From assembly GCA_963833885.1 (NCBI GenBank), contig CAWHZU010000023.1:56935-120934 (forward strand): a stretch of DNA of 64,000 bases, in the 5' to 3' direction. Source of the DNA: an uncultured Actinomycetota bacterium (GTDB lineage Bacteria > Actinomycetota > Actinomycetes > Streptosporangiales > Streptosporangiaceae). The notes beneath the pieces were generated by a model, which ran no database searches, was not told where the DNA came from, and saw only the letters and a program-made list of their open reading frames with translations. How positions within the stretch are numbered: position 1 is the first letter of the stretch; the number at the start of each line of letters is the position of its first letter. Both the position numbers and the translations under genes were made by a program. Shown here in pieces: positions 1,836-47,281 of the stretch.

Positions 1836-1945
1836 ATGGCGGCGGAATCGGCCAGGTCCGCGGGATCACTGGCACAACGATCTCCATAGTCTCTGAACAA
1901 CTAGTTATGAGTTGACTATGAACTAGTTGCCAGTTTACTATGCCA
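1807..1945. promoter_or_regulatory. Divergent promoter/operator region with three ACTAGT-core palindromes (AACTAGTT) between padR and the drrA-like gene
   Basis: CAACTAGTAAC at 1807-1818, and AACTAGTT at 1899-1906 and 1921-1928. TTGACT (1912-1917) and TACTAT (1937-1942) look like sigma70 hexamers flanking the last palindrome. GAGGGAAGGA RBS sits at 1982-1991 before the ATG at 1999. Confidence 0.4.
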
Positions 1946-11690: not shown

Positions 11691-13133
11691 CTACCGCCGG
11701 TGCCGCACGCCCAGATCGGCGAGGGCCGTCCGGGCAGCCCAGGCGCCGCACATGCCGTGCACGCCGCCGCCGGGCGGGGTCGATGCGGAGCAGAGGTAGA
11801 CGCCGGGCAGCGCGGTGCGGTACGGGTTCCACCGCGGTGTGGGGCGCAGCACGGTCTGCCACAGCGTGCTGGCCCCGCCGCTGATGTCGCCGCCGACGTA
11901 GTTGGGGTTGTACTGCTCCATCTCGGTGGCGGTGCGGACCGACCTGGCCAGGATCAGGTCGCGGAAGCCGGGCGCGAACCGCTCGATCTGCGCCTCGATG
12001 CGGGCGGACATGTCCACGTCCGAACCGCGCGGCACGTGGCAGTACCCCCACAGCGTCTGCTGCCCGGCCGGGGCCCGGCTGGGATCGACCACGCCCGCCT
12101 GGGCGATCAGGCAGAACGGGCGCTCCGGGTGACGTCCGGCTGCCACGTCGGCCTCGGACGCCGCTACCTCGGCGAACGTGCCGCCCACGTGTACGGTGCC
12201 AGCCTCCCGGCAGGCGGGGGCCTGCCAGGGCACCGACCCGCTGAGCGCCCAGTCGACCTTGCAGACGCCGGGGCCATACCGGAACCGCTGGAGCGCCCGC
12301 CGCGACCTGGCCGGGAGCCGGTCGCCCGCGAGCGCGACGAACTGGCGCGGGGTCACATCCAGCAGCACCGCACGTGCCTTTGGCAGGTCGCGGAGCGACG
12401 TGACCCAGCGGCCGGTCTCCATCCGGCCGCCCAGCGAGGTGAGCTCGGTGACCAGCGCGTCGGTCAGCCTGGCGCTGCCACCCTCGACAAAGGGCCAGCC
12501 AACCGAGTGCGCGATCATCAGGAACAGCAGGCCGAAGGAGCTGGTCAGCGGCTTATTGAGCGGAAGCATCGTGTGCGCGGCCGCGCCCGCGAGCAGGCTC
12601 TTTGCCTCATCCCCGCGGAACCGCCGGGCCAGCACGCTGGCTGGCAGCAGGCCCTCGGTGCCGAACCTGGCCATCGCCAGCGGGTGGGCGGGAAGCGTGC
12701 GCCCCAGCGGCCCGAGCACCGTGGGCAGGATCAGTGGCAGGTCCTGCGCCAGCGGCCCGAGCAGCCGCCGGTACGTGCGCGCGTCGGGCCCGAGCTCCGC
12801 GGCGGTCTCGTCGACCGACCCGGCGGCGGCTACGGCACGGCCGCCGTCCAGCGGCTGGGCGAAGGCCACCTTCGGGGTCAGCAGCCTGACCCCGAAGGTG
12901 GCCAGGTCCGTGCCGGCAAAGAATGGCGAGGCGCTGGCCAGCGGGTGCACCGCCGAGCAGACGTCGTGCCAGAACCCCGGCAGCGTCAGTTCCTCGGTCC
13001 TGCAGCCGCCGCCCGGCGTGCCCGCTCCGTCGATGACGTGCACGGACAGGCCGGCCCTGGCCATGGTCAGCGCGGCGGCGAGCCCGTTCGGCCCGGAACC
13101 GACCACCACCGCGTCAACGCCGTCAGAGCTCAA
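11691..13133 (-). CDS. Phytoene desaturase-family NAD(P)/FAD-dependent oxidoreductase (CrtI-like)
   Basis: N-terminal dinucleotide fold DAVVVGSGPNGLAAALTMARAGLSVHVIDG. 480 aa CrtI/amine-oxidase-like architecture. Confidence 0.8.
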   Translation of the reverse strand: MSSDGVDAVVVGSGPNGLAAALTMARAGLSVHVIDGAGTPGGGCRTEELTLPGFWHDVCSAVHPLASASPFFAGTDLATFGVRLLTPKVAFAQPLDGGRAVAAAGSVDETAAELGPDARTYRRLLGPLAQDLPLILPTVLGPLGRTLPAHPLAMARFGTEGLLPASVLARRFRGDEAKSLLAGAAAHTMLPLNKPLTSSFGLLFLMIAHSVGWPFVEGGSARLTDALVTELTSLGGRMETGRWVTSLRDLPKARAVLLDVTPRQFVALAGDRLPARSRRALQRFRYGPGVCKVDWALSGSVPWQAPACREAGTVHVGGTFAEVAASEADVAAGRHPERPFCLIAQAGVVDPSRAPAGQQTLWGYCHVPRGSDVDMSARIEAQIERFAPGFRDLILARSVRTATEMEQYNPNYVGGDISGGASTLWQTVLRPTPRWNPYRTALPGVYLCSASTPPGGGVHGMCGAWAARTALADLGVRHRR

Positions 13134-14058
13134 AGATCTCGCCCTCCGCGGCCACTATCACTTCGGGCTGGGCGGGACGGCCCGGCACCTCGCCCGGGAC
13201 CCCGGCGACCCGGCTCGCCACGTCGCCCGGGACCCCGGCGACCCGGCTGGCCACCTCGCCCCGGATTCCCGCGACCCGGCTGGCCACCTCGTCGAGCGCG
13301 GCGTCGGTGCGGCCCGGCTTGTGATGGGTCAGCACGACCCGCCGCGCCCCGGCCCGCCGGCCGAGCCCGATCGCGTAGTCGATCGCCGCGTGCCCGAAGA
13401 ACGCCTCGGCGGGGACCTCGTCGGCGAGCAGGAACGCGTCGTGCAGCAGCACGTCGGCGTCGCTGGCGAGCTCGAGCGCGGCGGCGTGGTACTCGCCCCA
13501 CCCCTCGGGCCCCGGCCCGAGGGCCGTGGGGCAGTGGTCGGGCAGGTACGCGATCACGCTGGACCCGTCGCTGACCCGGTAGCCGAGCGTCGCGCCGCCC
13601 TTGTGCGGTATCGCCCGGGCCTCGATCGTGAAGCCCTCGGCCTTCAGCTGCCCGGGCGCCACCGTGCCGAAGGTCCACGCGCCGCGCAGCTCGCTCGGCC
13701 CGATCGGGAAGTGCGGCGGCGACATGCCCTTGGCCAGCGCCTGCTCCGCGGTGGCGCCGTCCTCCTGCTCGGGCAGCAGCAGGCTGACCCGCGATCCCTC
13801 CCGGTCCCCGCCGGTGAAGAACGGCAGCCCGTGCACATGATCCCAGTGCAGGTGGGTGAGCAGGATCGTGCCGTCGAACGGCTGGCCGCCGAGCAGGGGC
13901 GTGACCTGACGCAGGCCGGTGCCCGCGTCCAGGACCAGCGTCGGCCTGGCATCGTCGTCGTGCGCGATGGCCACGCAGGAGGTGTGCCCGCCGTAGCGAA
14001 GGAAGTCGGCGCCGGGCGCCGGGGTCGAGCCGCGGACCCCACAGAGATACAGACGCAC
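13123..14058 (-). CDS. MBL-fold metallo-hydrolase with C-terminal 11-residue tandem repeats
   Basis: HLHWDHVHG (HxHxDH) zinc motif. C-terminus EVASRVAGIRG-EVASRVAGVPG-DVASRVAGVPG-EVPG. Confidence 0.8.
   Translation of the reverse strand: MRLYLCGVRGSTPAPGADFLRYGGHTSCVAIAHDDDARPTLVLDAGTGLRQVTPLLGGQPFDGTILLTHLHWDHVHGLPFFTGGDREGSRVSLLLPEQEDGATAEQALAKGMSPPHFPIGPSELRGAWTFGTVAPGQLKAEGFTIEARAIPHKGGATLGYRVSDGSSVIAYLPDHCPTALGPGPEGWGEYHAAALELASDADVLLHDAFLLADEVPAEAFFGHAAIDYAIGLGRRAGARRVVLTHHKPGRTDAALDEVASRVAGIRGEVASRVAGVPGDVASRVAGVPGEVPGRPAQPEVIVAAEGEIFEL
13174..13290. repeat. 33-bp in-frame tandem repeat (about 3.3 copies) inside the MBL hydrolase gene
   Basis: GACCCGGCT anchor recurs at 13207, 13240 and 13273 (period 33 bp). 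Confidence 0.7.
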
Positions 14059-34685: not shown

Positions 34686-36752
34686 TCAGCAGCCGCCGAG
34701 GCCCGCCCAGGCGGCCACGGTGTCGCCAACGGAGCCGCCGTCAACCCTCATCGTCCGGTTGGCCACGTAGCCGCAGCCGGCGGTCTCCTCCACGTTGTCC
34801 CAGCTGCCCCCCAGGTCGTACTTGTACGACAGGCTGGTGCTGGCGGTCGCGGTGACGACGGCCGTCCACTGCGTTGGGTTCAGCGGGGTCATCGCGATGC
34901 CCGCCGGGTTCCAGTCCGCCGCGCCCTCGCCAAGCACGGACAGGTTCCCGGCCAGATAGACCGTCTCGCCGGACGGGGTGCCGCCCGGGACGGTTACGGT
35001 CACGGTCTCCATCGCGACCGTGGCCATCGCGTTCACGTCGATGCCCACCGCGCCCATCGCGGGCACGGTCACCGTGGCCTGGCCCGCCACGTTTACCGCC
35101 ACCACGGTGCCGGTGCACCCACCGTTCACGGCGGCGCCGCTGATCACGTCGCAATAGGTGCCGACCGGCAAGCCAGTGCTGAACGTCTCGGTGAGGGCCG
35201 CACTCTCCGCGTTTATCGCGACCCATGCGGCCGAGCCCCGGCTGAACGCGATCACGTTGTCGCCGTCGGTCCACCAGTTCGCCACCGGTGCGGTGCCCGC
35301 CGCGTTGTGCCAGCCCACCATGCCGGTAATGGCGGGCCAGCGCTCCTCGCACTCCCAGGTTCCCTCGCCGCAGCCCGGCGCGGCGACCGCGTTCCCCCCG
35401 GCGCTCGGCGGCCCCTGGTCGTAGCTCGAGAACGCGTAGTCGGACAGCACCATCGGCGTGCCGTAGTCCCAGGCGAGCATGAACACGTTGGCGAGGACGT
35501 AGTCGGCGCCGTCGGCGTAATACAGCGCGCCGCCGTCCCGCTCGGTGTCCTGGTCGTCGACGAACGAGACCGCGTCGGCGCTCGGCACCATGCCCGCCGA
35601 ATTCCAGGACGGGCCGAAGTCGCTCAGCGAGGTGAGCGTTCCGGACGTGAACGCATCGTAGAGATCCCAGCCGTAGCGGTACTCCAGCAGCGAGCCCGTG
35701 CCCTCGTACAGCTCCGGCGTGACCGGCTGCCCGGCGCCGTACTCGACGTCCTGGTAGACGAAGACGGGCTTGGTCAGCAGCGCCTCGATCGCGGCGATGC
35801 TGGCCGGGTTCATCTCCTTCGCCGAGTCCCATCGGAACCCGTCCACGCCGAGCGCGATCAGGCTGTTGAGGTAGGCGGCCTCCTGGTCCTGCACGTAGGT
35901 CAGGCCGGTATTGAGGGTGGCCAGCCCGTCGAGCTGGCAGTTCCACACCTCGTACTCATCATCCCAGTCGGTGATCGAGGTCTGGCAGCTGCTGAAGTCG
36001 GACGGGTCATACAGCGGCGGGTAGTCGTACATGTTCGGGAACGTGGTGCCGTTGTCGCCGACACCGCCGTTGGCCTCGGCGGTCATGTGATGCAGCACCA
36101 CGTCGGCATACACCTTGATCCCAGCGGCGTGGCAGGTCGCGACCATCGAGGCGAGCTGCGCCTCGGTGCCGAACCGGGAGTTCAGGTCGTAGGCGACCGG
36201 CTGGTAGGCCTGCCACCACGGGTAGCCGTCGGCGGCCAGCACCACGGCTTCCTGCGGCGGCGAGATCTGCACCGCGCCGTACCCGTCGGGGCCGAGCACG
36301 TTCGTGCACTCCGAGGCGATCGCGGTCCACGGCCAGTCAAACATCTGCACGATGACATCGGGGTCCGCCGGGGCCGCGCTCACGTCGGAGCCGGCCGGGG
36401 CCGCGCTCACGCCCGGTTCGGCCGGGGCCGCGTTCACGTCGGAGCCGTGCGTCGTCGCCACGTCGGAACTGCGTGCCGCCACCTCGTCCGCGCCGCGCGC
36501 CGCGGCGGGCGCCGGGGAGGCGCTGAGCATGGCAAGGCCAAGGGTCAAGCCGAGCGGCAGGAGCAGGCGGGCTGGCCAGCCGCGCCGCCGGCTGCGGTGC
36601 CGCCCGGTGCGGCGCTGCTGGGCTCGGTGCCGACCGGCCCCGCGCGACTGCGCCCCGCGCGACTGCGCCCCGCGCGACTGCGCGCCGGGTAACTGCGCGC
36701 CGGGTGACTGTGCGCCGCGCGGCCTGACCGTCAAGAGCGGGACGAAACGCAT
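34686..36752 (-). CDS. Secreted GH13 alpha-amylase with C-terminal starch-binding CBM; N-terminus carries pentapeptide repeats
   Basis: GH13 blocks (DVVLHHM, GFRWDSAKE, FVDDQDTER). C-terminal CBM20-like module (VYLAGNLSVLG...SYKYDLGGSWDNVEET). Twin-Arg signal-like SRRRGWPARLLLPLGLTLGLAML. Start uncertain between 36600 and 36872; 36752 (MRFVPLL) chosen. Confidence 0.8.
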   Translation of the reverse strand: MRFVPLLTVRPRGAQSPGAQLPGAQSRGAQSRGAQSRGAGRHRAQQRRTGRHRSRRRGWPARLLLPLGLTLGLAMLSASPAPAAARGADEVAARSSDVATTHGSDVNAAPAEPGVSAAPAGSDVSAAPADPDVIVQMFDWPWTAIASECTNVLGPDGYGAVQISPPQEAVVLAADGYPWWQAYQPVAYDLNSRFGTEAQLASMVATCHAAGIKVYADVVLHHMTAEANGGVGDNGTTFPNMYDYPPLYDPSDFSSCQTSITDWDDEYEVWNCQLDGLATLNTGLTYVQDQEAAYLNSLIALGVDGFRWDSAKEMNPASIAAIEALLTKPVFVYQDVEYGAGQPVTPELYEGTGSLLEYRYGWDLYDAFTSGTLTSLSDFGPSWNSAGMVPSADAVSFVDDQDTERDGGALYYADGADYVLANVFMLAWDYGTPMVLSDYAFSSYDQGPPSAGGNAVAAPGCGEGTWECEERWPAITGMVGWHNAAGTAPVANWWTDGDNVIAFSRGSAAWVAINAESAALTETFSTGLPVGTYCDVISGAAVNGGCTGTVVAVNVAGQATVTVPAMGAVGIDVNAMATVAMETVTVTVPGGTPSGETVYLAGNLSVLGEGAADWNPAGIAMTPLNPTQWTAVVTATASTSLSYKYDLGGSWDNVEETAGCGYVANRTMRVDGGSVGDTVAAWAGLGGC
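36641..36715. repeat. Five tandem copies of a 15 bp unit (CGCGCGACTGCGCCC) encoding GAQS(R/P) pentapeptides at the amylase N-terminus
   Basis: Copies at 36641, 36656, 36671, 36686 and 36701. In-frame period of 15. Confidence 0.7.
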
Positions 36753-37063
36753 CGCTGGGGTGACCTTCCGTGCGTGCCGGCAAGGAGCCAGCGCCCGGGG
36801 ATCGGGCGCCGTGGCATCAGCGACCTTGCGGCGAAGTGCCGCATCCCATTGCTCCCGGTCGCTCCCAGACAAGCCATTTCGGGCCGGACCGCGATACCGG
36901 CCCAGAACGGAGTATCACGTCGTCAGCACCGGGTCGTCAATGGCTGCAACGGTATCGGCGCAGCCATTAAGGCAAGTTTTATGAATTATTTTTAAAATAT
37001 TTCAGGCCACAAGCCTGGTTTACCGTTTCGGCCAAATCTACGTTATGCGGAAAGGAGGATGCC

Positions 37064-39924
37064 GTGAAAATAAGGTGCAGATCACTGGCCGCGGCCGTCG
37101 CGGTCACGGTCGCCGTAGGGTTAGGGACACTCGTGCCCGCCGGGCCCGCGTTGGCGCAAGGTGCCGCACCCGGCGCGCCCGGCGCCAACGCCACGTGGAA
37201 CGAGGCGAACCTGCAGGGCTTCGCCGACTCACCCGGGAGCGATTCCAAGGTCTGGTACACGCTTGGCGATGGCGAGCTGGAGAACGTGTTCTACCCGGAG
37301 ACCGACACGCCGGACACGTTCGGGCTGCAGTACATCGTCACCAACGGCTCGTCGTTCGCGGACACCGAAACCGCGGACACCACGCACGCGATCTCCCTGG
37401 CGGACCCGACCTCGCTGGTCTGGCAGCAGGTGAACACCGCGACCAACGGCGACTTCACGATCACCAAGACTTACATCGCCGACCCGTCCCGCTCGGTCGT
37501 GCTGATCGAGACCACGTTCGACAACCTGACTTCCACGCCACTGCAGCTGTACGCCGACTACCTGCCGCAGCTCAACAACGACGGCATGGGCAACACCGGC
37601 GGCACGGATGCGACCAGCGGCGACCTGGTGGCCTCCAACGGCTCGGTGTCCAGCGCGCTCTCCTCGTCGGCCGGCTTCGCCCAGACGACCACCGGCTACG
37701 TCGGCAGCTCCAGCGACGGCAGCGAGCAGCTCGCCGGCAGCTACGGGCTGACGTCTACCTACTCCTCGGCGTCGACCGCCGGGCACATCGTCCAGGTCGC
37801 GCAGATCCCGGTGGCCGCCAGCGGGTCCACCACGTTCACGCTGGCGCTCGCGTTCGACTCCAGCCAGTCGGCGGCGATCTCAGACGCGGCCGCGTCCCTG
37901 GCGGCCGGGTTCTCGCCGCTGGAGAGCTCGTTCGAGGCGGGCTGGCACTCCTGGCTGGCCGGCCTGAACGGGCCGCCCGCCTCCGTCACTGGCAGCGCCA
38001 AGCTCGAAGAGCAGTACTACGTCTCGCTGATGGAGCTCAAGGCCGACGAGGACAAGACGTACGTCGGCGCGTTCATCGCATCGCCGACCGATCCCTGGGG
38101 CACCAGCGTGAGCGCCAACAGCGCGGGCGGCCACGGGTACCACGTGGTATGGACCCGCGACGAGTACGAAATGGCATCGGCCCTGCTTGCGGCCGGTGAC
38201 ACCACGGACGCGAACGCCGCGCTGCAGTACATCTTCAACTACGAGGAAGAGTCGAGCGGCGCCGTTAAGCAGAACACGTTCCTGAACGGGACGACCGTCT
38301 TCGGATCGCTGCAGATGGACGAGGTGGCCGACCCGATCATCCTCGCCTACCAGCTCGGTGCGACCAGCGCGAGCGACTGGAGCCACATCCAGCTGCTGGC
38401 CAGCTACCTGGTCGCCAACGGCCCCTACACGCCACAGGAGCGCTGGGAGGAGAACAGCGGCTACTCCCCGGCCACCATGGCATCCGAGATCGCGGGGCTG
38501 CTCTGCGCGGCCGCGATCGCCGAGGCCAACGGCGCCACCAGCGACGCGGCGACGTACCAGGCGACGGCGCTGTCCTGGGCGTCCGAGGTGGACAGCCTCA
38601 CGTACACGACGACGGGACCGTACGGGAACGGCGACTACTTCCTGCGGATCACGCCGGACGGCGACCCGAACTCGGGCGCGTCGATCTCGATCGCCAACGG
38701 CGGCGGAAGCCATGACGACCGCACCGTGGTCGACCCGAGCTTCCTCGAGCTGGTCCGGCTGGGCATCAAGTCGCCGACGGCGACCGATATCACGAACACG
38801 CTGTCGGTGGTGGATTCCGAGCTCGAGGCGCAGACGCCCGAGGGCCCGATCTGGCACCGGTACAACTTCGACGGGTACGGCGAGACCGCCTCGGGCGGCG
38901 ACTACACCGGGTCCGGGGTCGGCAACGTGTGGCCGGTGCTGAGCGGTGAGCGCGGCGAGTACGACGTGGCCGACGGCAACCTGTCCGGGGCGCAGTCGCT
39001 GCTGGAGACCATGGCGGGCGCCGCCAACTCCAGCTACCAGATTCCGGAGCAGGACTGGGCGGGCACGACGGGCACCGGCGGGTTCACGTTCGGCCAGCCC
39101 GACAACTCGGCCACCCCGCTGATGTGGTCCATGGCCCAGTACGTGCGGCTTGCCATCGACATCTCCGCCGGGCAGGACGTGGACACCCCGGCGGTCGTGG
39201 TCTCGTGCGTGCAGAACGGCAGCTGCCCGGTGACCGGGTCGGTCAAGGAGACCGTGAACGTGACCGTGCCGGTGAACACCGACGCCTCCGGCGACACGGT
39301 CTACCTGGACGGCAACCTGTCCGCGCTCGGCCTCGGCCAGTCCGACTGGGCCGCCGAAGGTATCCCGATGACCCGGGTGAGCGCGGACAAGTGGACAGCG
39401 ACCGTCGAGGCGGCCGCCGACACCACGCTGTCCTACAAGTACGACCTGGGCGGCAACTGGAACAACGTGGAGGAGACCGCCAGCTGCGGCGATGTGGACA
39501 ATCGCACGATGAGCGTGAACGGCGGCGCCGTCAACGACACGGTGGCGAACTGGCCGGCCCCGGCGCCTGCGGCGACTCGACTGCGGTGATCAACGTCACC
39601 GTGCCGTCGGACACCCCCAGCGCCGACACGGTCTACCTGTCCGGCAACTACGACGTACTCGGCACCGGTGTCCCGTCGTCGGACGACTGGGTCGCCACCG
39701 ACTACCCGATGATCCAGACCGGGCCGGACACCTGGACGCTGACCATCACCGGCGTTCCGGTGGCCGCGTTCCAGTACAAGTTCACGCTCGGCAGCTGGAG
39801 CAGCGTTGAGGAGACCGCCAGCTGCGGCGATGTCGCCAACCGCACCTTCGGCTTCGACACGGCCGACGCCAGCTACACCGCCAACGACACCGTCGCCGCG
39901 TGGGAAGGCGTCGGCGGCTGCTGA
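37064..39924 (+). CDS. Secreted GH15 glucoamylase/glucodextranase with two C-terminal CBM20-like modules; single frameshift near 39555
   Basis: GTG start with AAAGGAGGA RBS and a Sec signal. GH15 (alpha/alpha)6 blocks (HVVWTRDEYEMASALL, WEENSGYSPATMASEIAGL). First CBM ends at ORF stop 39589. ORF 39124-39924 continues with a second CBM in frame +2 (GPGACGDSTAVINVTVPSDT...SWSSVEETASCGDV). Junction sits in the run aactggccggccccggc. Confidence 0.75.
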
Positions 39925-40695: not shown

Positions 40696-43600
40696 TCACG
40701 GGACCGTGACGCCCTGCAGGGTGACGCCGGAGGTGTTCACGGTCGGGTCCAGCTCGGTCTGCACGTTCACCGAGGTGGGCGGGATCGTGTCCATCACGAT
40801 CGGCACGTTCGCCGGGTTGTAGGAGCAGATCGCGGGCGGCGACGACTCGGCGGCCACGGCGGCCGAGCAGACGCCGAACGTGTAGGCGCCGGGCGTGGCA
40901 GTGAACGTGCGCGCGTCGTCGTTGCCGAACCCGTCCTGGCCGGCGAGCGTCACCGTGAACGTCCACCCGGCACCGGGGGTCCCGAGCTCCGCCGTGGGCA
41001 CGGTGATCGTGACCAGGCCCGGCGTCTCGCCGGACGCGGCCGGCGCGAGCTGGATGACCGAGACCTGCGGGGTCCCGACGCTGGACGACCCGGACAGGCC
41101 GGAGGTCGCGCTGGCGGGGGTAACCCAGTCGTCGGTGCCGAACCCGTCGACTTCGATGAGCTGGTTCCAGGCGTCCGCGGGCGCGATCGAGTAGTTCCAC
41201 GCGCCGGCCGCCGCGGTCGACTGCGTCTCGCCGGCGGGAACGCTGCTGGACGGCGCGTGGATGTAAAGGTCGATGAGCTGCGCACCGTCCAGCGACCCGA
41301 ACGTGGACTGCAGGTTGGCGATCCCGACCTCGAACGTCACGGTGCTGGTTCCCTCGACGACGCTGAGGCCGTTCAGCCGGAACGAGTCCGGCGCGAACAC
41401 CGGCGAGCCGTCGGAGTTCGTCGCGGTCGGGTACGCGTAGCTGCCCGGGCCGCTGCCGCCGCCTGGGGCGGCCGCCGCGCTGAGCACCACGGTGCCCGGC
41501 ACGGACACGACGCTGAAGACGGCCTCGTTCGTGGCGCTCCCGGCCGTGGCCGCGACCTCGATGGAGTCGGTGCCCGGCTGCAGGCTGACCGGCACCGAGT
41601 ACACCCCGGACGACCCGGCGGTGGCCGTCGTGATCGTCGTCGCCGGCGCGGCTGCGCCCGCCGCGGTCCCGCTGACCGCGACGTCCACCGTCGCCCCGGG
41701 TGAGGTGGTGCCGGTCACGGTCGTGGTCGCGGCGTTGACGACCACGGTGGGCCGGGTCAGGTTCGCCGGCACGTTCCCGCCGGACACCGACAGCGGCGCG
41801 GATACCGTCAGCGGCGCCGCAGCAGGCGGGCTGGACTCATACCGCTCGGCGACGATCGACGGCTGCTCCAGCAGCCTGCCCGCCGCCTGGTCCGAGATCA
41901 GCCGCAGCAGCTGCGCCTGCGCCCAGGTCAGCGGCGCCGCCGAGCCGTCCGCCTGCCCGTCGGTGAACCCGATCGACGCGGTCGCCGGGTCGGAGCCGTA
42001 CGGCGAGGCCGGCACGTCCGGGTAGTTCCACACCTGCTCGGGGACCAGGCCGACGCCGGAGGAGGAGTTCAGCATGAAGTCCAGGTCCGCGCCGAGTGCC
42101 GAGGAGCCGCCGGCCAGGATCTGGTACTCCCCGTTCTCCCCGGACAGCACCGGCCACGGGTGCCCGGTGCCCTCGTCGGTGGTGGCCCACGGCTGCCCGT
42201 TGACCTGGCAGTCCTCGAATACCGAGAGCTCGCAGTCGCCGTAGCCGTCGCCGTTGTAGCGCATGATCCCGGTCCCGGACGGGGTTGGCGCGCTGATCGT
42301 GGCGCCGGTCACCTTCAGCGAGTTCGTGACCAGCGGCGAGCTGGCCGGCAGCTCGCCGAGCCGGACCAGCTCGAGGAAGCCCTGGTCCACCACGGCTCGC
42401 TGGTCGTAGCTGGTCGGGTCGCCGTTGCCGAGCGTGTAGTCGGACGCCTGGTCGGGGTTCCCGGTCTTGTCCACCCGGATGAAGTACGGCTGTGACGACA
42501 GTGGCCCGTTGTCGGTGACGGTCGTGGTCAGGATCAGCCGCCGGAAGTTGTCCGCTGTGGCCAGGAACAGCCGCTGCGACGCCGTATCGCCCTGCACGCG
42601 CGCGATCGCTGCGGCGGCGACCAGGCCGGCCACCTCGTCGGCCATCGTCGACGGCGAGAACCCGGTCTGCTCCTCCCAGCGCTCCACCCCGTCGGCCGGG
42701 CCGTTCGCGGCCAGGAAGTCGGCCGCCCTCCTGATGTGATCGACGTACAGCGAGCGGTCGCCCGCCAGGCCCGCCTGCCACGCCTCGAGGATGGGGTCGG
42801 CGGCCTCGTCGAGCTGCAGCCCGCCGGTGTCCGGCGCGGCCTTCCCGTTGAGCAGGCCGTTGCGCGGGAACGAGCCGTTCGGCAGCTGCATGTCATCGAA
42901 CATGTACGTGACGATCTGCCGGGCGGTGGCCAGGTCGCCGTCGGTGAGGAACCCGGTGAACGTCTCGTAGGCGTCCCGGGGGAACACCTCACGGTAGGAG
43001 CCGAAGTACGGCGCGAGCCCGTCGCTCGCGGTCTGCCCGGCCGGCACCGCCTGCCCCCACGGGCTGGCCAGCGACGCGGCGGTCGCGCCGGGGAAGGTCT
43101 TGTCCTCGCTGGCCTTGAGCACGTTCGCGCTCAGCCAGTAAGCGGCCGCGTCCTTCGCGCTCACCGGCGCGTGCTTGCCCGCGCCGCCTGGCGGCAGCAG
43201 CCGCGCGTCGTAGGCCCGCCAGCCCGCCTGGTAGGCGGCGTAGGTCGCGGCGAACGGCGCGGCCGACGCGGCCAGCGCGGTGCCGACCGCGTCGCGCTCG
43301 TTGCCGCCGAAGCCGAGCGCGACGGTGGCCGAGCCGGCCGACATGTTCAGCTCGACGGTCTGCACCACATTGCCGTTGCTCGCGTCGGGTGCCCCGGAGC
43401 TCAGCGTTCCGGCCGAATCGAGCTCAGTAAGGCCGTCGCTCGAGGTTCCGTCGAAACCCGTTTCGACAGCCTTGAACGGGGAGTTGGCGGCCAGTGCCGC
43501 GTAGATCGGCGTGGCATAGCTGCGGTTCACGGCCTCGGTGAACGAGTCGGTCGAGTAGGAGAGCGGGATCGGCCCGCGCGGGGTGGAGACGACCGTCGCC

Positions 43601-44730
43601 GACTCGCCGCCCGCGTTGTCGGTGCCTCCGCCGGCGTGCCCGTTCAGCAGCGGGTTGAACCGCAGGTAGGCGGACAGGCCGGACGGGGCGCCGGGCAGCG
43701 GCACCAGGCTGATCCGCATCACCACTGCCTCGGCGGACGGGTCGGTGATGAAGTCGGTGACCAGCTTGAAGTCGTGCGCCGCGTCCAGCGCGGTGATCTG
43801 GCAGGCCATGCCGGTGGAATCCAGCGAGGCGACCGAGTAGGTCATGTCGCGCGGCTGCAGCGCCGTGAAGCCGGGCCCGGTCACGATCGGGTCCAGGCTC
43901 TTGACGTCGGTGTTGTCGATCGTCGGGGCGTAGACGTCGGACAGGATGCCGTCCGCGACCGTGTACCAGGCCTTGGACGCGGTATTCGCGGCGGTGCCCA
44001 CGCAGTCCTTGCGTGCCTCGTCGTAGTAGGAGGCGGCGCCGGGCGCGCCGGGCGCCTCGGCGGCCGGGGAGCCGATCGTGAGGCCGAAGACGTGCATCGC
44101 CGATACGTTCTTGCCGACGCCCGGGCTCACGGTGGGCAGCGTGACGGAGGTGACCTGCTTGCCCGCGGTCAGCGGGATCGCCGCGTAGAACAGGCTGACC
44201 GGCGTGCTCCCGCCGGGGTTCCAGCCCGCCGTGGTGGCCAGCAGGTCGGTGCCCGAGGCGGCGCTGGTGTCGACCCAGTCGGCGAGCGTGACCGTGGCGG
44301 TGCTGCTGGTGCCGTCGGAGTACCCGACGGTGAACGTTCCGGTGGTGCTGCCGTACGCGGAGGCGCCGATGACGCCGAGCACGGATCCGGTCCCGGCCAG
44401 CGCGATCGTCTGGCCGTCGGCGACCACGTTGTCCGGGTCGCCGGGCGCGACGTCGGGCCAGGTGATCGTCATGCCGTCGTGCAGCAGCGACTGGCCGGGG
44501 ACAAGCGCGTCCTCGGCCAGGCCGGAGGCGGAGAACGAGTCGCCGATGCCGTCGTAGTTCCCGGCCGCGGTGTGCGACGGGGACGTGATGCCGACGTTGT
44601 TGAAAGCCTGCGCCAGGGTCGGCAGCGATGCCCCGGTGGCGGGGGCGGTTAACCCGGAACTCAGCAACGCCGCGGCCGGGAGCAGGGCCGTGACCGCCGC
44701 CGTCAGCAGCATCCGCCGGGATCTCCTCAT
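40696..44730 (-). CDS. Large secreted multidomain GH15-family glycoside hydrolase (1344 aa) with beta-sandwich/Ig-like accessory domains
   Basis: Signal peptide MRRSRRMLLTAAVTALLPAAALL from ATG 44730, with a perfect GAGGAGG RBS. The ORF track instead starts at GTG 44745. Central GH15 catalytic blocks (WEEQTGFSPSTMADEVAGLVAAAAIA; YREVFPRDAYETF) are paralogous to the 37064 gene. The C-terminal third is Thr/Ser/Ala/Gly-rich beta-strand repeats. Confidence 0.75.
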   Translation of the reverse strand: MRRSRRMLLTAAVTALLPAAALLSSGLTAPATGASLPTLAQAFNNVGITSPSHTAAGNYDGIGDSFSASGLAEDALVPGQSLLHDGMTITWPDVAPGDPDNVVADGQTIALAGTGSVLGVIGASAYGSTTGTFTVGYSDGTSSTATVTLADWVDTSAASGTDLLATTAGWNPGGSTPVSLFYAAIPLTAGKQVTSVTLPTVSPGVGKNVSAMHVFGLTIGSPAAEAPGAPGAASYYDEARKDCVGTAANTASKAWYTVADGILSDVYAPTIDNTDVKSLDPIVTGPGFTALQPRDMTYSVASLDSTGMACQITALDAAHDFKLVTDFITDPSAEAVVMRISLVPLPGAPSGLSAYLRFNPLLNGHAGGGTDNAGGESATVVSTPRGPIPLSYSTDSFTEAVNRSYATPIYAALAANSPFKAVETGFDGTSSDGLTELDSAGTLSSGAPDASNGNVVQTVELNMSAGSATVALGFGGNERDAVGTALAASAAPFAATYAAYQAGWRAYDARLLPPGGAGKHAPVSAKDAAAYWLSANVLKASEDKTFPGATAASLASPWGQAVPAGQTASDGLAPYFGSYREVFPRDAYETFTGFLTDGDLATARQIVTYMFDDMQLPNGSFPRNGLLNGKAAPDTGGLQLDEAADPILEAWQAGLAGDRSLYVDHIRRAADFLAANGPADGVERWEEQTGFSPSTMADEVAGLVAAAAIARVQGDTASQRLFLATADNFRRLILTTTVTDNGPLSSQPYFIRVDKTGNPDQASDYTLGNGDPTSYDQRAVVDQGFLELVRLGELPASSPLVTNSLKVTGATISAPTPSGTGIMRYNGDGYGDCELSVFEDCQVNGQPWATTDEGTGHPWPVLSGENGEYQILAGGSSALGADLDFMLNSSSGVGLVPEQVWNYPDVPASPYGSDPATASIGFTDGQADGSAAPLTWAQAQLLRLISDQAAGRLLEQPSIVAERYESSPPAAAPLTVSAPLSVSGGNVPANLTRPTVVVNAATTTVTGTTSPGATVDVAVSGTAAGAAAPATTITTATAGSSGVYSVPVSLQPGTDSIEVAATAGSATNEAVFSVVSVPGTVVLSAAAAPGGGSGPGSYAYPTATNSDGSPVFAPDSFRLNGLSVVEGTSTVTFEVGIANLQSTFGSLDGAQLIDLYIHAPSSSVPAGETQSTAAAGAWNYSIAPADAWNQLIEVDGFGTDDWVTPASATSGLSGSSSVGTPQVSVIQLAPAASGETPGLVTITVPTAELGTPGAGWTFTVTLAGQDGFGNDDARTFTATPGAYTFGVCSAAVAAESSPPAICSYNPANVPIVMDTIPPTSVNVQTELDPTVNTSGVTLQGVTVP

Positions 44731-44741
44731 GGCGCGCCTCC

Positions 44742-44877
44742 TCACGGCGGGCGGCGCTGCGATGCACAGCCCCCCTCACAGCGGGCGGCGGCACGGAGCG
44801 CAGCCCCCTTCACGGCGGGCGGCGCTGCGGCGCGCAGCCCCCTTCACGGCGGGCGACGCTGCGGCGCACAGCATTGC
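44742..44877. repeat. Four tandem 34 bp direct repeats immediately upstream of the 1344 aa GH15 gene, adjoining its RBS
   Basis: Copies start at 44742, 44776, 44810 and 44844, with consensus TCACGGCGGGCGGCGCTGCGGCGCACAGCCCCCT. The period of 34 is not a multiple of 3. Confidence 0.75.
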
Positions 44878-45261
44878 CTGACCCGCCCCGCCCGGTCCCG
44901 CTCTCCCCGGAGATGGTCTCGCCGTGACCTTGGCCGTGACGAGACCCGCGGGCGCTTTTTTTCAAAAGATTTCGGCTTTTCCATGTCCCAAGCGCGAGAT
45001 CTGCCGGGTCGGGCCGCACGCGGCCGGCCGAGCACGGCCACCCCCGGCAGGCTGAAGCGCACCCAGCGCCGCCACGCCCGCCTGCCCAGCACGCCCACCC
45101 AGCACAGCGCAATGCCGCGTGCTTGCGGCGACGCTTCGCGACTAGCAATCAGTAGCGAAGCGGGGCAGCCGCGGGGCGCGAGGCTCAGCCGTTCCGTCCT
45201 GTACCACTGGTCCTGCCAGCCTCAGACGCACCACACCAAGGCTCGCTCGAGCATTCGATTT

Positions 45262-45315
45262 CCATGATCGTGGTGGATAACGACCGAATGAGCGCCTTTT
45301 TCACCACGATCATGG
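45262..45315. repeat. Perfect 14 bp inverted repeat with a 26 nt spacer in a low-GC non-coding island
   Basis: CCATGATCGTGGTG (45262-45275) and CACCACGATCATGG (45302-45315). The loop contains GCGCCTTTTT. Confidence 0.7.
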
Positions 45316-46165
45316 AACAAGCGCGCGGTCACGCGCTGGATGGATCCCGCGGCCGCCGACCACGCGGGCCGCTGCCGCCATCGCGCTGGGCGGGCGAAAC
45401 CGACCGGACGGACCCTATTCCCGCCCCGGTCGTATATGAGATACGATGCACGACACCTCGTACCGGCCAACTGCGCGCCCGGGCTGGCCTGGTGAGGGGT
45501 GGCAAACAACCGACATGACTTCGGAGTGGCTAATGGACAGCGTTACGAATTCTTTACGGCACTGAGGCTCGCCCGACCACCCAGAAGCGGGCACACTGTG
45601 CACACATGTACATCTGGTCACGTGCGCCTGGCAGCATTAGCCCGCAGCGCGCGGCCAGCATGGCATCGGGCCGCGTCCCGAACGGGAGTTCCCATTGAAG
45701 GGCTGCGATGAAGAATTCCCGTCTTGTTCAGGCCGCAGACCACCGGGCGAAGGCAGATCACAGTTGTGCGTCTGCTATCAGCCGATCATTGACGGGCAAG
45801 TCAAGGTGTTCTAGCTTATGGCCTCGTCAGGCGCTACAGCATCTCGGATGTTAGCGCTCACATCGGCCGAAACCATCGGCCGCGAACCCGTGCCGCTCCC
45901 CATGTGAGCGGCCCTGAGACAGGAGTCGGGTGGACATGGGCGACGTCGCGATCCCCCGGGATCAAGGCGGTCGCCTGCCGTTCCGCCTGTGGCAGGACCC
46001 CTTCGAACAGGGATCTCAGGACTCGAGAGCAGGCATAGCGACCGGGGAGCATGGTGCCCGCCCGGCGCAAATCGGCGGCGCATTCCCGCCGCCGCAAGGA
46101 AATGATGGAGGCCCGTGATGGACAGAGTCGACCCCAAGGTCGATGAAGCGATCGAAACCCTCAAC

Positions 46166-47281
46166 ATGAAAGATGGGCCGTCGCGCCGGAAGCTGCTCAA
46201 GGGCACCGGCCTGGTCAGCGCCACCGCGGCGGCCTCCGCGCTGCTGGCGGCGTGCAGCTCATCGAGCAGCCCGGCGAGCGCCGCCGCCAAGGACACCGCG
46301 GGGAACTTCCCGAAAGTGCCGGCGTGGCAGTTCTGGTTCGTCAACCACGTCACCACGAACACCTTCTTCACGCCGACCCAGTACGGCTTCGCCGACGCCG
46401 CCGCGATACTCGACATCCCCGTGCCGAAGTGGACCGGCTCGACGAACTCGGTCGCCTCACAGATGGTCGCGCAGATCAACGCCGCGGTATCCGCCAAGGC
46501 GGCCGGCATCGCGACCACGCTGATCAACTCCAGCTCGTTCACCACCCCGGTGGGGAACGCGATGAGCGCTGGCATCCCGGTGCTGAGTTACAACGCCGAC
46601 GGGGTGGTCAGCAAGAGCGGCGTGCCGGACATCGGCTGCAACCGGCTGGCCTACGTCGGGCAGGCCCTGTTCACCTCCGGCCAGCAGCTTGGGGAGCGGA
46701 TCAAGTCGCTGACGACGCCGGGCGAGGTGGCGATCTTCATCGAGACTCCCGGGACGGCGAACATCCAGCCCCGCTTCGACGGCGCCAACTCGATACTCAG
46801 CCCGCTGGGCTACAAGGTAGCCGAGATCACGACGACCACGGTCCCGGCCACGATCCTGGCAAACGAGAAGGCGTACCTGCTCGCGCACAAGAGCGTCAAG
46901 GGCGCGTTCGCCGTGGACTCGACGTCAACCTCGTTCCTGGCGCAGGCGCTCTCCGAAACCGGGATGTCGCACCTGCCGAACGGCGGATTCGACACGGTCC
47001 CGCAGACGCTGACCAACATCAAGGCCGGCACCACCGGCTTCACCATCTACCAGGACCCGTACCTGCAGGGGTTCCTGCCCACGCTGTACCTGTATCTGTA
47101 CAACATCTCCGGCGGCACGCTCGTCCCGTCCGACACCGACACTGGCCTGTCCTTCATCACGAAGAGCAACCTGACCCAGTACAACGTGGCCAGCAGGTAC
47201 CAGGGCTCCACCACCGCGCAGAAGTACGTGCCGCGGCCCTCCGGCGCGATCAGCAACCCGCCGGCAACCACCAGCACCTGA
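46166..47281 (+). CDS. Sugar ABC transporter substrate-binding lipoprotein (PBP type I, RbsB/XylF-like) with Tat signal
   Basis: Tat motif SRRKLLKG plus lipobox LLAACSS. Periplasmic-binding-protein fold. Start chosen at M18 (MKDGPSRRKLL); ORF track starts at 46115. Confidence 0.75.
   Translation: MKDGPSRRKLLKGTGLVSATAAASALLAACSSSSSPASAAAKDTAGNFPKVPAWQFWFVNHVTTNTFFTPTQYGFADAAAILDIPVPKWTGSTNSVASQMVAQINAAVSAKAAGIATTLINSSSFTTPVGNAMSAGIPVLSYNADGVVSKSGVPDIGCNRLAYVGQALFTSGQQLGERIKSLTTPGEVAIFIETPGTANIQPRFDGANSILSPLGYKVAEITTTTVPATILANEKAYLLAHKSVKGAFAVDSTSTSFLAQALSETGMSHLPNGGFDTVPQTLTNIKAGTTGFTIYQDPYLQGFLPTLYLYLYNISGGTLVPSDTDTGLSFITKSNLTQYNVASRYQGSTTAQKYVPRPSGAISNPPATTST

What the first reader, a model, noticed from the sequence alone, without database searches (positions are those of the whole stretch)
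44742..44877. Four tandem 34 bp repeats form the leader of the 1344 aa GH15 gene
Direct repeats start 12 nt upstream of the ATG and overlap the GAGGAGG RBS. Each unit reads, on the gene strand, GGGGCTGCGCGCCGCAGCGCCGCCCGCCGTGAAG-like. The period of 34 is not a multiple of 3, so they are not coding.

A repeat array inside a 5' UTR could be a protein-binding array, for example a cooperative regulator controlling starch-degradation genes. It could also be a structured RNA leader or a slipped-strand expansion hot spot that modulates expression.
Basis: seen in the sequence. Interest (0 to 1): 0.55.

Follow-up and report, generated by a model that had tools for sequence, protein, structure and literature searches.

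The report
Variable 34-bp repeat before glucodextranase gene
Four copies of the 34 bp that carry the ribosome-binding site sit directly before a secreted starch/dextran-degrading enzyme gene of an uncultured soil actinobacterium; close relatives have one, three or four copies, so this is an ordinary strain-variable minisatellite, with no sign of a regulator-binding array or a folded RNA.

Summary
Window 44737-44872 holds four head-to-tail 34-bp units on the minus (gene) strand. They end 6 nt before the ATG (44730) of a 1344-aa GH15 glucodextranase-like gene. The last unit supplies the real GAGGAGG ribosome-binding site, and the other three end in near-equivalent GAAGGGGG or GAGGGGGG.

A comparison of 19 close orthologous loci shows a locus-specific minisatellite (VNTR):
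- One unit is the ancestral state. It is found in all relatives at or below about 92% CDS identity, and in one at 96%.
- Three or four units occur only in one young clade.
- Units have been gained, lost and recombined.

The unit occurs nowhere else in the 64-kb window. In a scan of 241 million metagenome records it was found only at this same locus. Genomes from different samples that are nearly identical carry identical arrays, so it is not a fast phase-variation switch.

The leader folds no better than shuffled sequence and has no Rfam match. The palindrome inside the units is not conserved. The array diverges as fast as the neighbouring non-coding DNA.

Best reading: replication slippage or unequal recombination duplicated the RBS-proximal part of the 5' leader. 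Any effect on expression is unproven and probably modest. The closest analogues are the promoter-proximal VNTRs of Mycobacterium tuberculosis. Interest is low to moderate.

The parts
44839..44872 (-). Unit 1, the most distal from the gene. It carries the GCTGTG-CGC-CGCAGC hairpin/palindrome and ends in the SD-like GTGAAGGGG.
44805..44838 (-). Unit 2. This is the extra unit relative to the 98.7%-identical relative L001. It has a perfect palindrome GCTGCG-CGC-CGCAGC and ends in GTGAAGGGG.
44771..44804 (-). Unit 3, the 'type B' variant (GCTGCGCTCCGTGCC...CGCTGTGAGGGGG). The palindrome is broken. Type-B units also occur in L001, L050, L055 and L002. It contains GTG 44794, which lies 9 nt after unit 2's AAGGGGG and is out of frame with the gene.
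44737..44770 (-). Unit 4, proximal to the gene. It corresponds to the single ancestral copy, and its last 7 nt (44743-44737, GAGGAGG) are the working Shine-Dalgarno sequence.
44731..44736 (-). Spacer CGCGCC between the SD and the ATG. It is unique and not part of the repeat.
40696..44730 (-). GH15 glucodextranase-like gene, 1344 aa, with signal peptide MRRSRRMLLTAAV... The first ATG (44730) is the conserved start, preceded by the SD.
44873..44905 (-). Unique G-rich leader segment between the conserved upstream block and the array (GGGACCGGGCGGGGCGGGTCAGGCAATGC-like).
44906..44982 (-). Conserved single-copy upstream block: GAAAAGCCGAAATCTTTTGAAAAAAAGCGCCCGCGGGTCTCGTCACGGCCAAGGTCACGGCGAGACCATCTCC. 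It is the probable promoter/operator. In distant orthologues it aligns with TGn + (C/A)AAWAT, an extended -10-like motif, which would put the transcription start just upstream of GGGTCTCGTCA. This is inferred, not mapped.

Best explanation
The array is a locus-specific minisatellite (VNTR) in the 5' leader of the GH15 gene.

Shown:
- In the ancestor, a single 34-bp segment (GCTGYGCNNCGCAGCGCCGCCCGCCGTGAGGAGG) lay directly before CGCGCC-ATG and carried the Shine-Dalgarno sequence.
- In one young clade this segment was duplicated in tandem.
- The array then changed by gain, loss and exchange of whole units, giving 1, 3 or 4 copies.

Inferred:
- The mechanism was replication slippage or unequal recombination.
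- All units are transcribed as leader, because no -10 element can exist in or after the array and the conserved promoter-like block lies upstream of it.

The expansion lengthens the leader by 102 nt. It adds three SD-like purine tracts at 34-nt spacing that have no properly placed in-frame start codon.

No sequence evidence shows that the extra copies are used by a regulator or form a dedicated RNA structure. They evolve about as fast as the neighbouring non-coding DNA. The most likely effect is neutral, or a modest change in translation efficiency.
For: 1. Copy number against relatedness.
- 4 units: the window, L073 and L074 (CDS 5 mismatches in 4035).
- 3 units: L001 (98.7% CDS nt identity).
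- 4 units: L050 (97.0%).
- 1 unit: L004 (96.3%).
- 4 units: L002 and L080 (94.4%).
- 3 units: L055.
- At least 2 units: L077, whose contig starts inside the array.
- 1 unit: L003, L039/L079, L081, L078, L006 and L059/L075/L076 (82-92%).
- No repeat: more distant orthologues, which keep only a GGAGG SD.

2. Single origin. The derived 'type B' unit (...CTCCGTGS...CGCTGTGARGGGG) is shared by the window, L001, L050, L055 and L002. L002's unit 1 still shows the primary junction GTGAGGAGG|GCTG.

3. Unit exchange. L001's last unit has a type-B 5' half, while the window's last unit has a type-A 5' half. They differ at 4 of 34 positions although the coding sequences differ by only 1.3%.

4. Locus specificity. 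There is no other copy in the 64-kb window. In 241 million metagenome records, 43 stretches match a 21-nt core. Only 5 of these (L034, L039, L050, L055, L059) share flanking sequence, and all 5 lie upstream of the same gene. The other 38 are isolated matches inside unrelated sequence. In the 81 fetched loci, hits fall only at the orthologous position or in those unrelated chance-match loci.

5. The array is real. It is present in independent assemblies from ENA/NCBI and JGI.

6. No constraint is visible. Window versus L001 shows 5/102 differences in orthologous units (4.9%). The adjacent intergenic DNA differs by 4.7% and the CDS by 1.3%.

7. No promoter is possible inside the array. There is no TA dinucleotide, and only one TANNNT on the gene strand between 44731 and 45800, at 45417.
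Against: - All 13 internal units keep the purine tract GTGARGRGG. The 3' half of the unit is more uniform than the 5' half (93% against 84% identity to consensus).
- Five of six array-clade lineages hold 3-4 copies.
- Both points could reflect some selection, but shared descent and gene conversion explain them equally well.
- The transcription start is not mapped.
- The genome-wide test for dispersal used metagenome contigs and fetched loci. No complete genome of this organism was scanned.
Confidence: 0.8

Rival explanations
1. Translational tuning device. The extra units act in the mRNA in one of two ways. Their SD-like tracts could serve as ribosome standby or decoy sites. Alternatively, their GCCGUGARG tails could act as decoys for a 5'-proximal anti-SD-like box (GGGUCUCGUCACGG). 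Either way, copy number would set how much enzyme is made.
For: - Internal tails are predicted to bind a generic 16S anti-SD almost as well as the true SD (-11.5 and -11.6 against -12.2 kcal/mol).
- The conserved upstream box is unusually complementary to the SD region. The duplex energy is -29.1 kcal/mol, reached by only 0.17% of 14,218 background windows and 0.5% of shuffles. Internal units give -23.4 to -24.0.
- The purine tract is kept in every internal unit.
- The type-B unit offers GTG 44794 nine nt after an SD-like tract. This opens an out-of-frame ORF that would run across the true start.
Against: - Full-leader ensemble folding hardly ever pairs the box with the SD. The expected number of pairs is mostly 0-2, because the box prefers its local partner.
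- The opening energy of SD through AUG is 9.4-12.1 kcal/mol with one unit and 10.1-14.6 with 3-4 units, with no consistent shift.
- Box and SD region are both invariant in the clade, so covariation cannot be tested. In L026 the complementarity is lost.
- The array diverges at the neutral-looking intergenic rate.
- The box-SD test was one of several exploratory tests.
Confidence: 0.13
2. Array of binding sites for a transcription factor that controls starch/dextran genes, with one dimer per palindromic unit and cooperative binding.
For: - Three of the four units contain a 6-3-6 palindrome GCTGYG-NNN-CRCAGC, and 3 matches are found where 0.12 are expected.
- The gene sits in an amylolytic cluster with an alpha-amylase and a second GH15 carrying CBM20.
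- Regulator genes lie nearby in relatives.
Against: - All three palindrome matches in 64 kb are inside this array. None lies upstream of the other amylolytic genes.
- The palindrome is broken in unit 3 and in 2 of L001's 3 units, including the proximal one.
- The 5' half, which holds the palindrome, is the most variable part of the unit.
- Most orthologues have one unit.
- The conserved operator-like sequences (the AT-rich box) lie upstream and stay single-copy.
Confidence: 0.04
3. Promoter multiplication, as in the promoter tandem repeats of Mycobacterium tuberculosis. Each unit would carry a promoter, so more copies would give more transcription.
For: The geometry is the same as Mtb VNTR3690, a 58-bp unit 12 bp upstream of lpdA. 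The cysG and dop repeats also change copy number among strains (PMC12817950).
Against: - The units contain no TA dinucleotide, so no TANNNT -10 is possible.
- The consensus promoter scan finds nothing.
- The gene has a conserved SD and leader, whereas at least the lpdA and cysG cases in Mtb are described as leaderless promoters.
- A non-canonical GC-rich promoter cannot be excluded by sequence alone.
Confidence: 0.04
4. Structured cis-regulatory RNA (riboswitch or thermosensor-like leader) built from repeated hairpins.
For: Units 1, 2 and 4 each form a 6-bp hairpin when folded alone.
Against: - The 240-nt leader is less stable than 176 of 200 dinucleotide shuffles (z = +1.17).
- Single units give z = 0.24-1.37.
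- No Rfam family matches at E < 1.
- Hairpins are lost in many units.
- Relatives function with one unit.
Confidence: 0.02
5. A dispersed REP/MIRU-like genome repeat that happens to sit here, or an assembly artefact.
For: The unit is GC-rich and palindrome-containing, which superficially resembles REP elements.
Against: - There are no other copies in the window, in about 0.5 Mb of fetched loci, or at non-orthologous metagenome sites.
- The same array is found in independent assemblies from different archives and samples.
Confidence: 0.02

Closest known systems
Promoter-proximal tandem repeats (VNTRs) of Mycobacterium tuberculosis: VNTR3690 upstream of lpdA, QUB15 upstream of cysG, and the dop promoter repeat (PMC12817950, read)
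   Same: - The host is an actinobacterium.
- The units are imperfect and tens of bp long (54-58 bp there, 34 bp here).
- They lie head-to-tail a few bp before a start codon (12 and 29 bp there, 6 bp here).
- Copy number differs between closely related strains through slippage or recombination.
   Different: - In Mtb the repeated unit is described as a promoter. For lpdA and cysG the promoters are leaderless, and copy number is thought to change promoter strength.
- Here the unit carries the Shine-Dalgarno sequence, cannot hold a TANNNT -10, and lies within the leader.
- The Mtb repeats vary within laboratory stocks. Here near-identical genomes have identical arrays.
MIRU (mycobacterial interspersed repetitive units) and REP/BIME-type intergenic repeats. 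This comparison rests on general knowledge and was not checked in a paper here.
   Same: Short GC-rich intergenic repeats, often tandem, oriented with the flanking genes and transcribed with them.
   Different: Those are families dispersed over tens to hundreds of loci per genome. This unit was found only at one locus.
Simple-sequence-repeat phase variation in 5' UTRs or promoters, e.g. Haemophilus influenzae (PMC12721329, abstract seen)
   Same: Repeat copy number in the untranslated leader could change expression after transcription.
   Different: SSRs have perfect units of 1-9 bp and switch at high frequency. Here the units are 34 bp and about 80-94% alike, and they are stable between samples.
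TAACTGA direct repeats upstream of genes in marine Beggiatoaceae (PMC4679880, abstract seen)
   Same: Direct repeats in leaders, proposed to act after transcription.
   Different: That is a 7-nt motif present in 169 sets in that draft genome. Here a 34-nt unit occurs at a single gene.

Membership tests
Minisatellite / VNTR | Head-to-tail tandem copies of a unit of at least 10 bp | tested here: met
   Four 34-bp units, TRF score 182.
Minisatellite / VNTR | Copy number differs between closely related genomes at the same locus | tested here: met
   1, 3 or 4 (and at least 2) units in orthologous loci with 94-100% CDS identity.
Minisatellite / VNTR | Unique flanks, i.e. a single locus | tested here: met
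   The flanks are conserved and single-copy. The unit is absent elsewhere.
Dispersed intergenic repeat (REP/BIME, MIRU family) | Many copies at unrelated loci of the same genome | tested here: not met
   There are no further copies in the 64-kb window. All metagenome hits that share flanking sequence lie upstream of the same gene. No closed genome of the lineage was available to scan.
Mtb-type promoter tandem repeat | Each unit contains a promoter (-10 element) and a transcription start | tested here: not met
   There is no TA dinucleotide in the array and no TANNNT. The consensus scan found 0 sites. Start sites are not testable with these tools.
Mtb-type promoter tandem repeat | Copy number varies within or between near-clonal strains | tested here: not met
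   The window, L073 and L074 carry identical arrays, as do L002 and L080, at 99.9% or more CDS identity from different samples. Variation appears only at about 1% or more divergence.
Simple-sequence contingency locus (phase variation) | Short, perfect repeat units with a high switching rate | tested here: not met
   The unit is 34 bp and copies are about 80-94% alike. Arrays are stable between samples.
Structured cis-regulatory RNA (Rfam families, riboswitch or leader) | Match to a curated family, or stability/covariation beyond chance | tested here: not met
   No relevant Rfam match; the only hit at E < 1 is a chance-level one at 44387-44444 on the opposite strand, outside the array. z = +1.17 for the leader and 0.24-1.37 for single units.
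Iterated operator / regulator-binding array | A repeated site conserved in sequence across units and orthologues, and shared with co-regulated genes | tested here: not met
   The palindrome is broken in several units. Most orthologues have a single unit. The motif is absent from the other amylolytic genes of the window. Protein binding is not testable here.

The most novel reading that the evidence does not exclude
The array could be a copy-number-set translational rheostat. Each extra unit would present an SD-like tract and a GCCGUGARG tail to the mRNA's own 5'-terminal anti-SD-like box (GGGUCUCGUCACGG). Units would then act as decoys or standby sites that change how often the true SD of this secreted glucodextranase is free. 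Soil strains would tune enzyme output by gaining or losing 34-bp units.
Probability: 0.1. Interest if true: 0.5.

Novelty: new member of a known kind. Interest (0 to 1): 0.25.

Why it matters
The scientific weight is modest.
- It documents, in an uncultured soil actinobacterial lineage (Streptosporangiaceae / Trebonia-like MAGs), a minisatellite that duplicates the ribosome-binding segment of a leader rather than a promoter or coding repeat.
- It shows how the array was born, diversified and probably collapsed within a clade of more than 93% identity.

Practical points:
- The locus is a strain marker in metagenomes.
- It breaks short-read assemblies. L077's contig starts inside the array.
- The start of this gene is called inconsistently in public records (1338, 1344 or 1366 aa).

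If the extra SD-like units do change translation, this would be a simple natural example of expression tuning by RBS-region copy number. Nothing here demonstrates that.

Tried and rejected
- Rfam scans of 44300-46000 and 45330-46200 at permissive E-values gave only chance-level hits.
- The sigma-70 consensus scan found no promoter in 44600-46000. It is too strict for actinobacteria, so I ran my own TTGNNN-N16-19-TANNNT scan. That found a good promoter for the divergent binding-protein gene but none for the GH15 gene.
- Folding leaders with 1-4 units to find a copy-number effect on SD accessibility gave no consistent difference.
- I looked for hairpin or structure significance and found none.
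- RNAalifold suggested a shared 5'-box/SD pairing in the divergent gene's leader. Its duplex energy is unremarkable, with 28% of background windows as good, so the parallel was dropped.
- A G-quadruplex reading of GGGACCGGGCGGGGCGGG (44905-44888) was rejected. The near-identical L073 and L074 lack 5 nt of it, and other relatives do not keep it.
- An exact-protein look-up of the window's own gene found nothing, because it differs at 5 nt from the deposited relatives.
- A translated upstream ORF or N-terminal extension was considered. The in-frame reading is closed by a stop inside unit 3, and 34-bp steps shift the frame between relatives.

Full report
WHAT IS THERE

The window is high-GC actinobacterial DNA. 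On the minus strand, ORF 40696-44730 encodes a 1344-aa secreted protein with a signal peptide (MRRSRRMLLTAAV...). It has Glucodextran_N, GH15 and Glucodextran_C domains.

Directly upstream of the ORF, Tandem Repeats Finder reports 44740-44872, period 34, 3.9 copies, 84% matches, score 182. This is the best array in the window. The repeat finder puts the copies in register over 44737-44872.

On the gene strand the four units are:
- U1: GCTGTGCGCCGCAGCGTCGCCCGCCGTGAAGGGG
- U2: GCTGCGCGCCGCAGCGCCGCCCGCCGTGAAGGGG
- U3: GCTGCGCTCCGTGCCGCCGCCCGCTGTGAGGGGG
- U4: GCTGTGCATCGCAGCGCCGCCCGCCGTGAGGAGG

CGCGCC and then ATG follow U4. The last unit therefore supplies the real GAGGAGG Shine-Dalgarno sequence, and every other unit ends in a purine tract of the same kind. 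The 34-mer with up to 3 mismatches is expected 0.00 times by chance.

COMPARISON WITH RELATIVES

The protein has hundreds of close homologues. They come from soil metagenomes and from MAGs labelled Streptosporangiaceae, Trebonia or uncultured Actinomycetota. I collected orthologous loci in four ways:
- by exact-protein look-up;
- by a scan of the species-representative genome collection;
- by a pattern scan of the metagenome collection;
- from members of the two closest 90% clusters.

The start codon and the sequence GCCGCCCGCCGTGAGGAGG-CGCGCC-ATG are conserved down to 82% CDS identity.

Copy number sorts with relatedness, measured as identity of the first 1500 nt of the CDS to the window:

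| Locus | CDS identity to window | Units |
|---|---|---|
| L073, L074 | 100% | 4 (arrays identical to the window's) |
| L001 | 98.7% | 3 |
| L050 | 97.0% | 4 |
| L004 | 96.3% | 1 |
| L002, L080 | 94.4% | 4 |
| L055 (short contig) | not measured | 3 |
| L077 (contig starts inside the array) | not measured | at least 2 |
| L003 | 91.7% | 1 |
| L079, L039 | about 90-91% | 1 |
| L081 | 90.9% | 1 |
| L078 | not measured | 1 |
| L006 | 88.2% | 1 |
| L059, L075, L076 | 82.4% | 1 |

More distant orthologues have no repeat, only a GGAGG SD.

Several details bear on how the array arose and changed:
- A derived 'type B' unit (...GCTCCGTGS...CGCTGTGARGGGG) is shared by all array-bearing lineages.
- L002's first unit still has the primary duplication junction GTGAGGAGG|GCTG.
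- Together these argue for one origin in the ancestor of the clade above about 93% identity.
- Later events include a gain or loss of unit 2 between the window and L001, and exchange of unit halves. L001's last unit is type B in its 5' half, whereas the window's last unit is type A.
- L004 probably collapsed to one unit. Its unit and its upstream flank match the terminal unit and flank of L050.

NOT DISPERSED, NOT AN ARTEFACT

Neither the unit nor its 15-nt core occurs elsewhere in the 64-kb window above background.

A 21-nt degenerate core was scanned against 241 million metagenome records and hit 43 stretches. Five of them (L034, L039, L050, L055, L059) continue into the same flanks and the same gene. 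The other 38 are isolated matches with no flanking similarity, mostly inside what look like coding regions of unrelated organisms. That is roughly the number my own rough estimate predicted for chance in GC-rich DNA.

Among all 81 fetched loci, the 18-nt core is found only at the orthologous position or in those chance loci.

The array appears in independent assemblies from different archives and samples. It is therefore real.

RATE OF CHANGE AND CONSTRAINT

L073 and L074 come from two samples and L002 and L080 from two others. Within each pair, and between the window and L073/L074, the CDS differs by at most 5 of 4035 nt and the arrays are identical. The array is therefore not a rapidly switching contingency locus. 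Changes become visible at about 1% or more divergence.

Orthologous units of the window and L001 differ at 5 of 102 positions (4.9%). The adjacent intergenic DNA differs by 4.7% and the CDS by 1.3%. Against L002 the array differs by about 15% (my hand count of the units listed). The intergenic DNA differs by 10% and the CDS by 5.6%.

The array is thus no more conserved than neighbouring non-coding DNA. Within the unit, the 3' half is more uniform than the 5' half (93% against 84% identity to consensus). This is the half that is the conserved RBS context in single-copy relatives.

TESTS OF THE FUNCTIONAL READINGS

(a) Structured RNA.
- No Rfam family matches.
- The 240-nt leader folds to -131.9 kcal/mol against a shuffle mean of -137.8 (z = +1.17; 176 of 200 shuffles fold at least as well).
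- Single units give z = 0.24-1.37.
- The opening energy of SD through AUG is 9.4-12.1 kcal/mol in one-unit leaders and 10.1-14.6 in leaders with 3-4 units. There is no consistent effect.

(b) Regulator-binding array.
- The 6-3-6 palindrome GCTGYG-NNN-CRCAGC matches only inside this array in the whole window.
- It is broken in unit 3 and in two of L001's three units.
- It lies in the most variable part of the unit.
- The sequences that are conserved like operators lie upstream and stay single-copy. These are an AT-rich box and GGGTCTCGTCA...GCGAGACCATCTCC at 44906-44982, kept even in orthologues with roughly 75-88% protein identity over the N-terminal 600 aa.

(c) Promoter multiplication.
- The gene strand from 44731 to 45000 has no TA dinucleotide at all.
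- The only TANNNT up to 45800 is at 45417.
- No canonical -10 can therefore lie in or after the array.
- In distant orthologues the AT-rich box reads TG-n-(C/A)AAWAT, an extended -10-like motif. It aligns with TGAAAAAAAG of the window.
- This suggests, by inference only, a start just upstream of GGGTCTCGTCA. The leader would then be about 218 nt here and about 116 nt in one-unit relatives.

(d) Translational effects.
- Internal tails are predicted to pair with a generic anti-SD nearly as well as the true SD (-11.5 and -11.6 against -12.2 kcal/mol).
- Only the last tail has an in-frame start at proper spacing.
- Unit 3's GTG (44794) lies 9 nt after unit 2's AAGGGGG. It opens an out-of-frame ORF that runs across the true start.
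- The upstream box GGGUCUCGUCACGGCCAAGGUC is unusually complementary to the SD region. The duplex energy is -29.1 kcal/mol, matched by only 0.17% of background windows and 0.5% of shuffles. It is less complementary to internal units (-23.4 to -24.0).
- In ensemble folds the box mostly pairs locally, not with the SD.
- Both partners are invariant, so covariation cannot be tested.
- These points keep a translational-tuning reading alive at low probability. They do not establish it.

VERDICT

The feature is a genuine, locus-specific, strain-variable minisatellite. It was made by tandem duplication of the SD-bearing last 34 nt of the leader. The closest described analogues are the promoter-proximal VNTRs of Mycobacterium tuberculosis (PMC12817950). 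They share its position and behaviour but duplicate promoters, at least two of them for leaderless genes. I file it as a new member of a known kind, with low to moderate interest.

SURROUNDINGS

The gene lies in an amylolytic cluster with an alpha-amylase carrying CBM20 (34686-36872, minus strand) and a second GH15 with CBM20 (37064-39589, plus strand). It is transcribed divergently from a sugar-binding-protein gene (46115-47281), across a 1.4-kb spacer.

The part of that spacer next to the binding-protein gene is conserved without codon periodicity. It contains a good TTGACG-N17-TAGCTT promoter, a LacI-type-looking palindrome and a roughly 300-nt conserved leader. This is listed under things noticed in passing.

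Noticed in passing
window 45380-46115 (+ strand, upstream of the binding-protein gene 46115-47281): About 730 nt of non-coding DNA is conserved as strongly as coding DNA among 11-14 orthologues. About 360 nt of it is kept even in distant orthologues at roughly 67-75% nt identity. Substitutions show no period-3 pattern, unlike the ORF that follows. The region contains an invariant promoter-like TTGACG-N17-TAGCTT (45789-45817), a near-palindrome ATGTTAGCGCTCACAT (45848-45863) that looks like a LacI/GalR-type operator, and a roughly 300-nt leader with several conserved hairpins. Eight of 60 predicted pairs show compensatory changes. There is no Rfam match. It may be an undescribed structured leader of a sugar ABC transporter operon.
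   Followed up: partly
window 45430-45446: A perfect inverted repeat TCGTAT-ATGAG-ATACGA sits at a conservation peak in the middle of the GH15/binding-protein spacer. It is also present in L003. It looks like an operator. The only TANNNT on the GH15 strand in the whole spacer (TAGGGT, 45417) lies next to it.
   Followed up: no
window 44929-44950 and 45822-45829: Both divergent genes carry a conserved (C/T)CTCGTCA box. In the binding-protein gene it lies just after the -10. In the GH15 gene it lies after the AT-rich box. In the GH15 leader the box is complementary to the SD region (-29.1 kcal/mol, top 0.17% of background). In the other gene the equivalent pairing is unremarkable. The meaning is unknown; it could be a shared DNA site or a 5'-end RNA element.
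   Followed up: partly
window 36367-36721 (- strand, 5' part of alpha-amylase gene 34686-36872): The neighbouring secreted alpha-amylase gene also has tandem repeats near its 5' end. A 15-bp unit is present in 5.7 copies (GAQSR pentapeptides ahead of the hydrophobic core of the signal peptide, if the ATG at 36751 is the start). A 27-bp unit is present in 3 copies (SDVSAAPAG-like linker). Both are in frame. Repeat expansion near the 5' ends of secreted-enzyme genes may be a habit of this genome.
   Followed up: partly
window 13178-13291 (- strand ORF 13123-14058): A 33-bp repeat in 3.5 copies (TRF score 165) encodes EVASRVAGVPG-like 11-residue repeats at the C-terminal end of a 311-aa ORF. It is a coding repeat and unrelated to the finding.
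   Followed up: partly
window 1899-1942: An AT-rich 22-bp direct repeat (AACTAGTTATGAGTTGACTATG / AACTAGTTGCCAGTTTACTATG) lies about 60 nt upstream of an ATG at about 2000. A third AACTAGT copy is at about 1809. It looks like a duplicated operator.
   Followed up: no
L001, L002, L073-L076, L078, L080 (gene starts as called in public records): Gene callers start this gene at the second ATG (1338 aa) in many records and 22 codons too early (1366 aa) in others. The conserved SD-preceded first ATG gives 1344 aa. Exact-protein look-ups and clustering are affected by this.
   Followed up: yes
L034 1900-1935: One metagenome contig has the proximal half of a unit plus the gene start, joined to unrelated upstream sequence. 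The breakpoint lies inside the unit. This is either a chimeric assembly at the repeat or a real rearrangement.
   Followed up: no
window 44888-44905 (- strand): The window has GGGACCGGGCGGGGCGGG, a canonical four-tract G-quadruplex motif, just upstream of the array. The otherwise identical L073 and L074 lack 5 nt of it (GGGACCGGGCGGG). This is either a small indel polymorphism or a sequencing difference in a G-rich run.
   Followed up: partly
window 45060-45340: This middle part of the 1.4-kb spacer is not conserved among close orthologues (column identity 0.14-0.3), although both flanks are. It may be a lineage-specific insertion or a fast-evolving segment.
   Followed up: no
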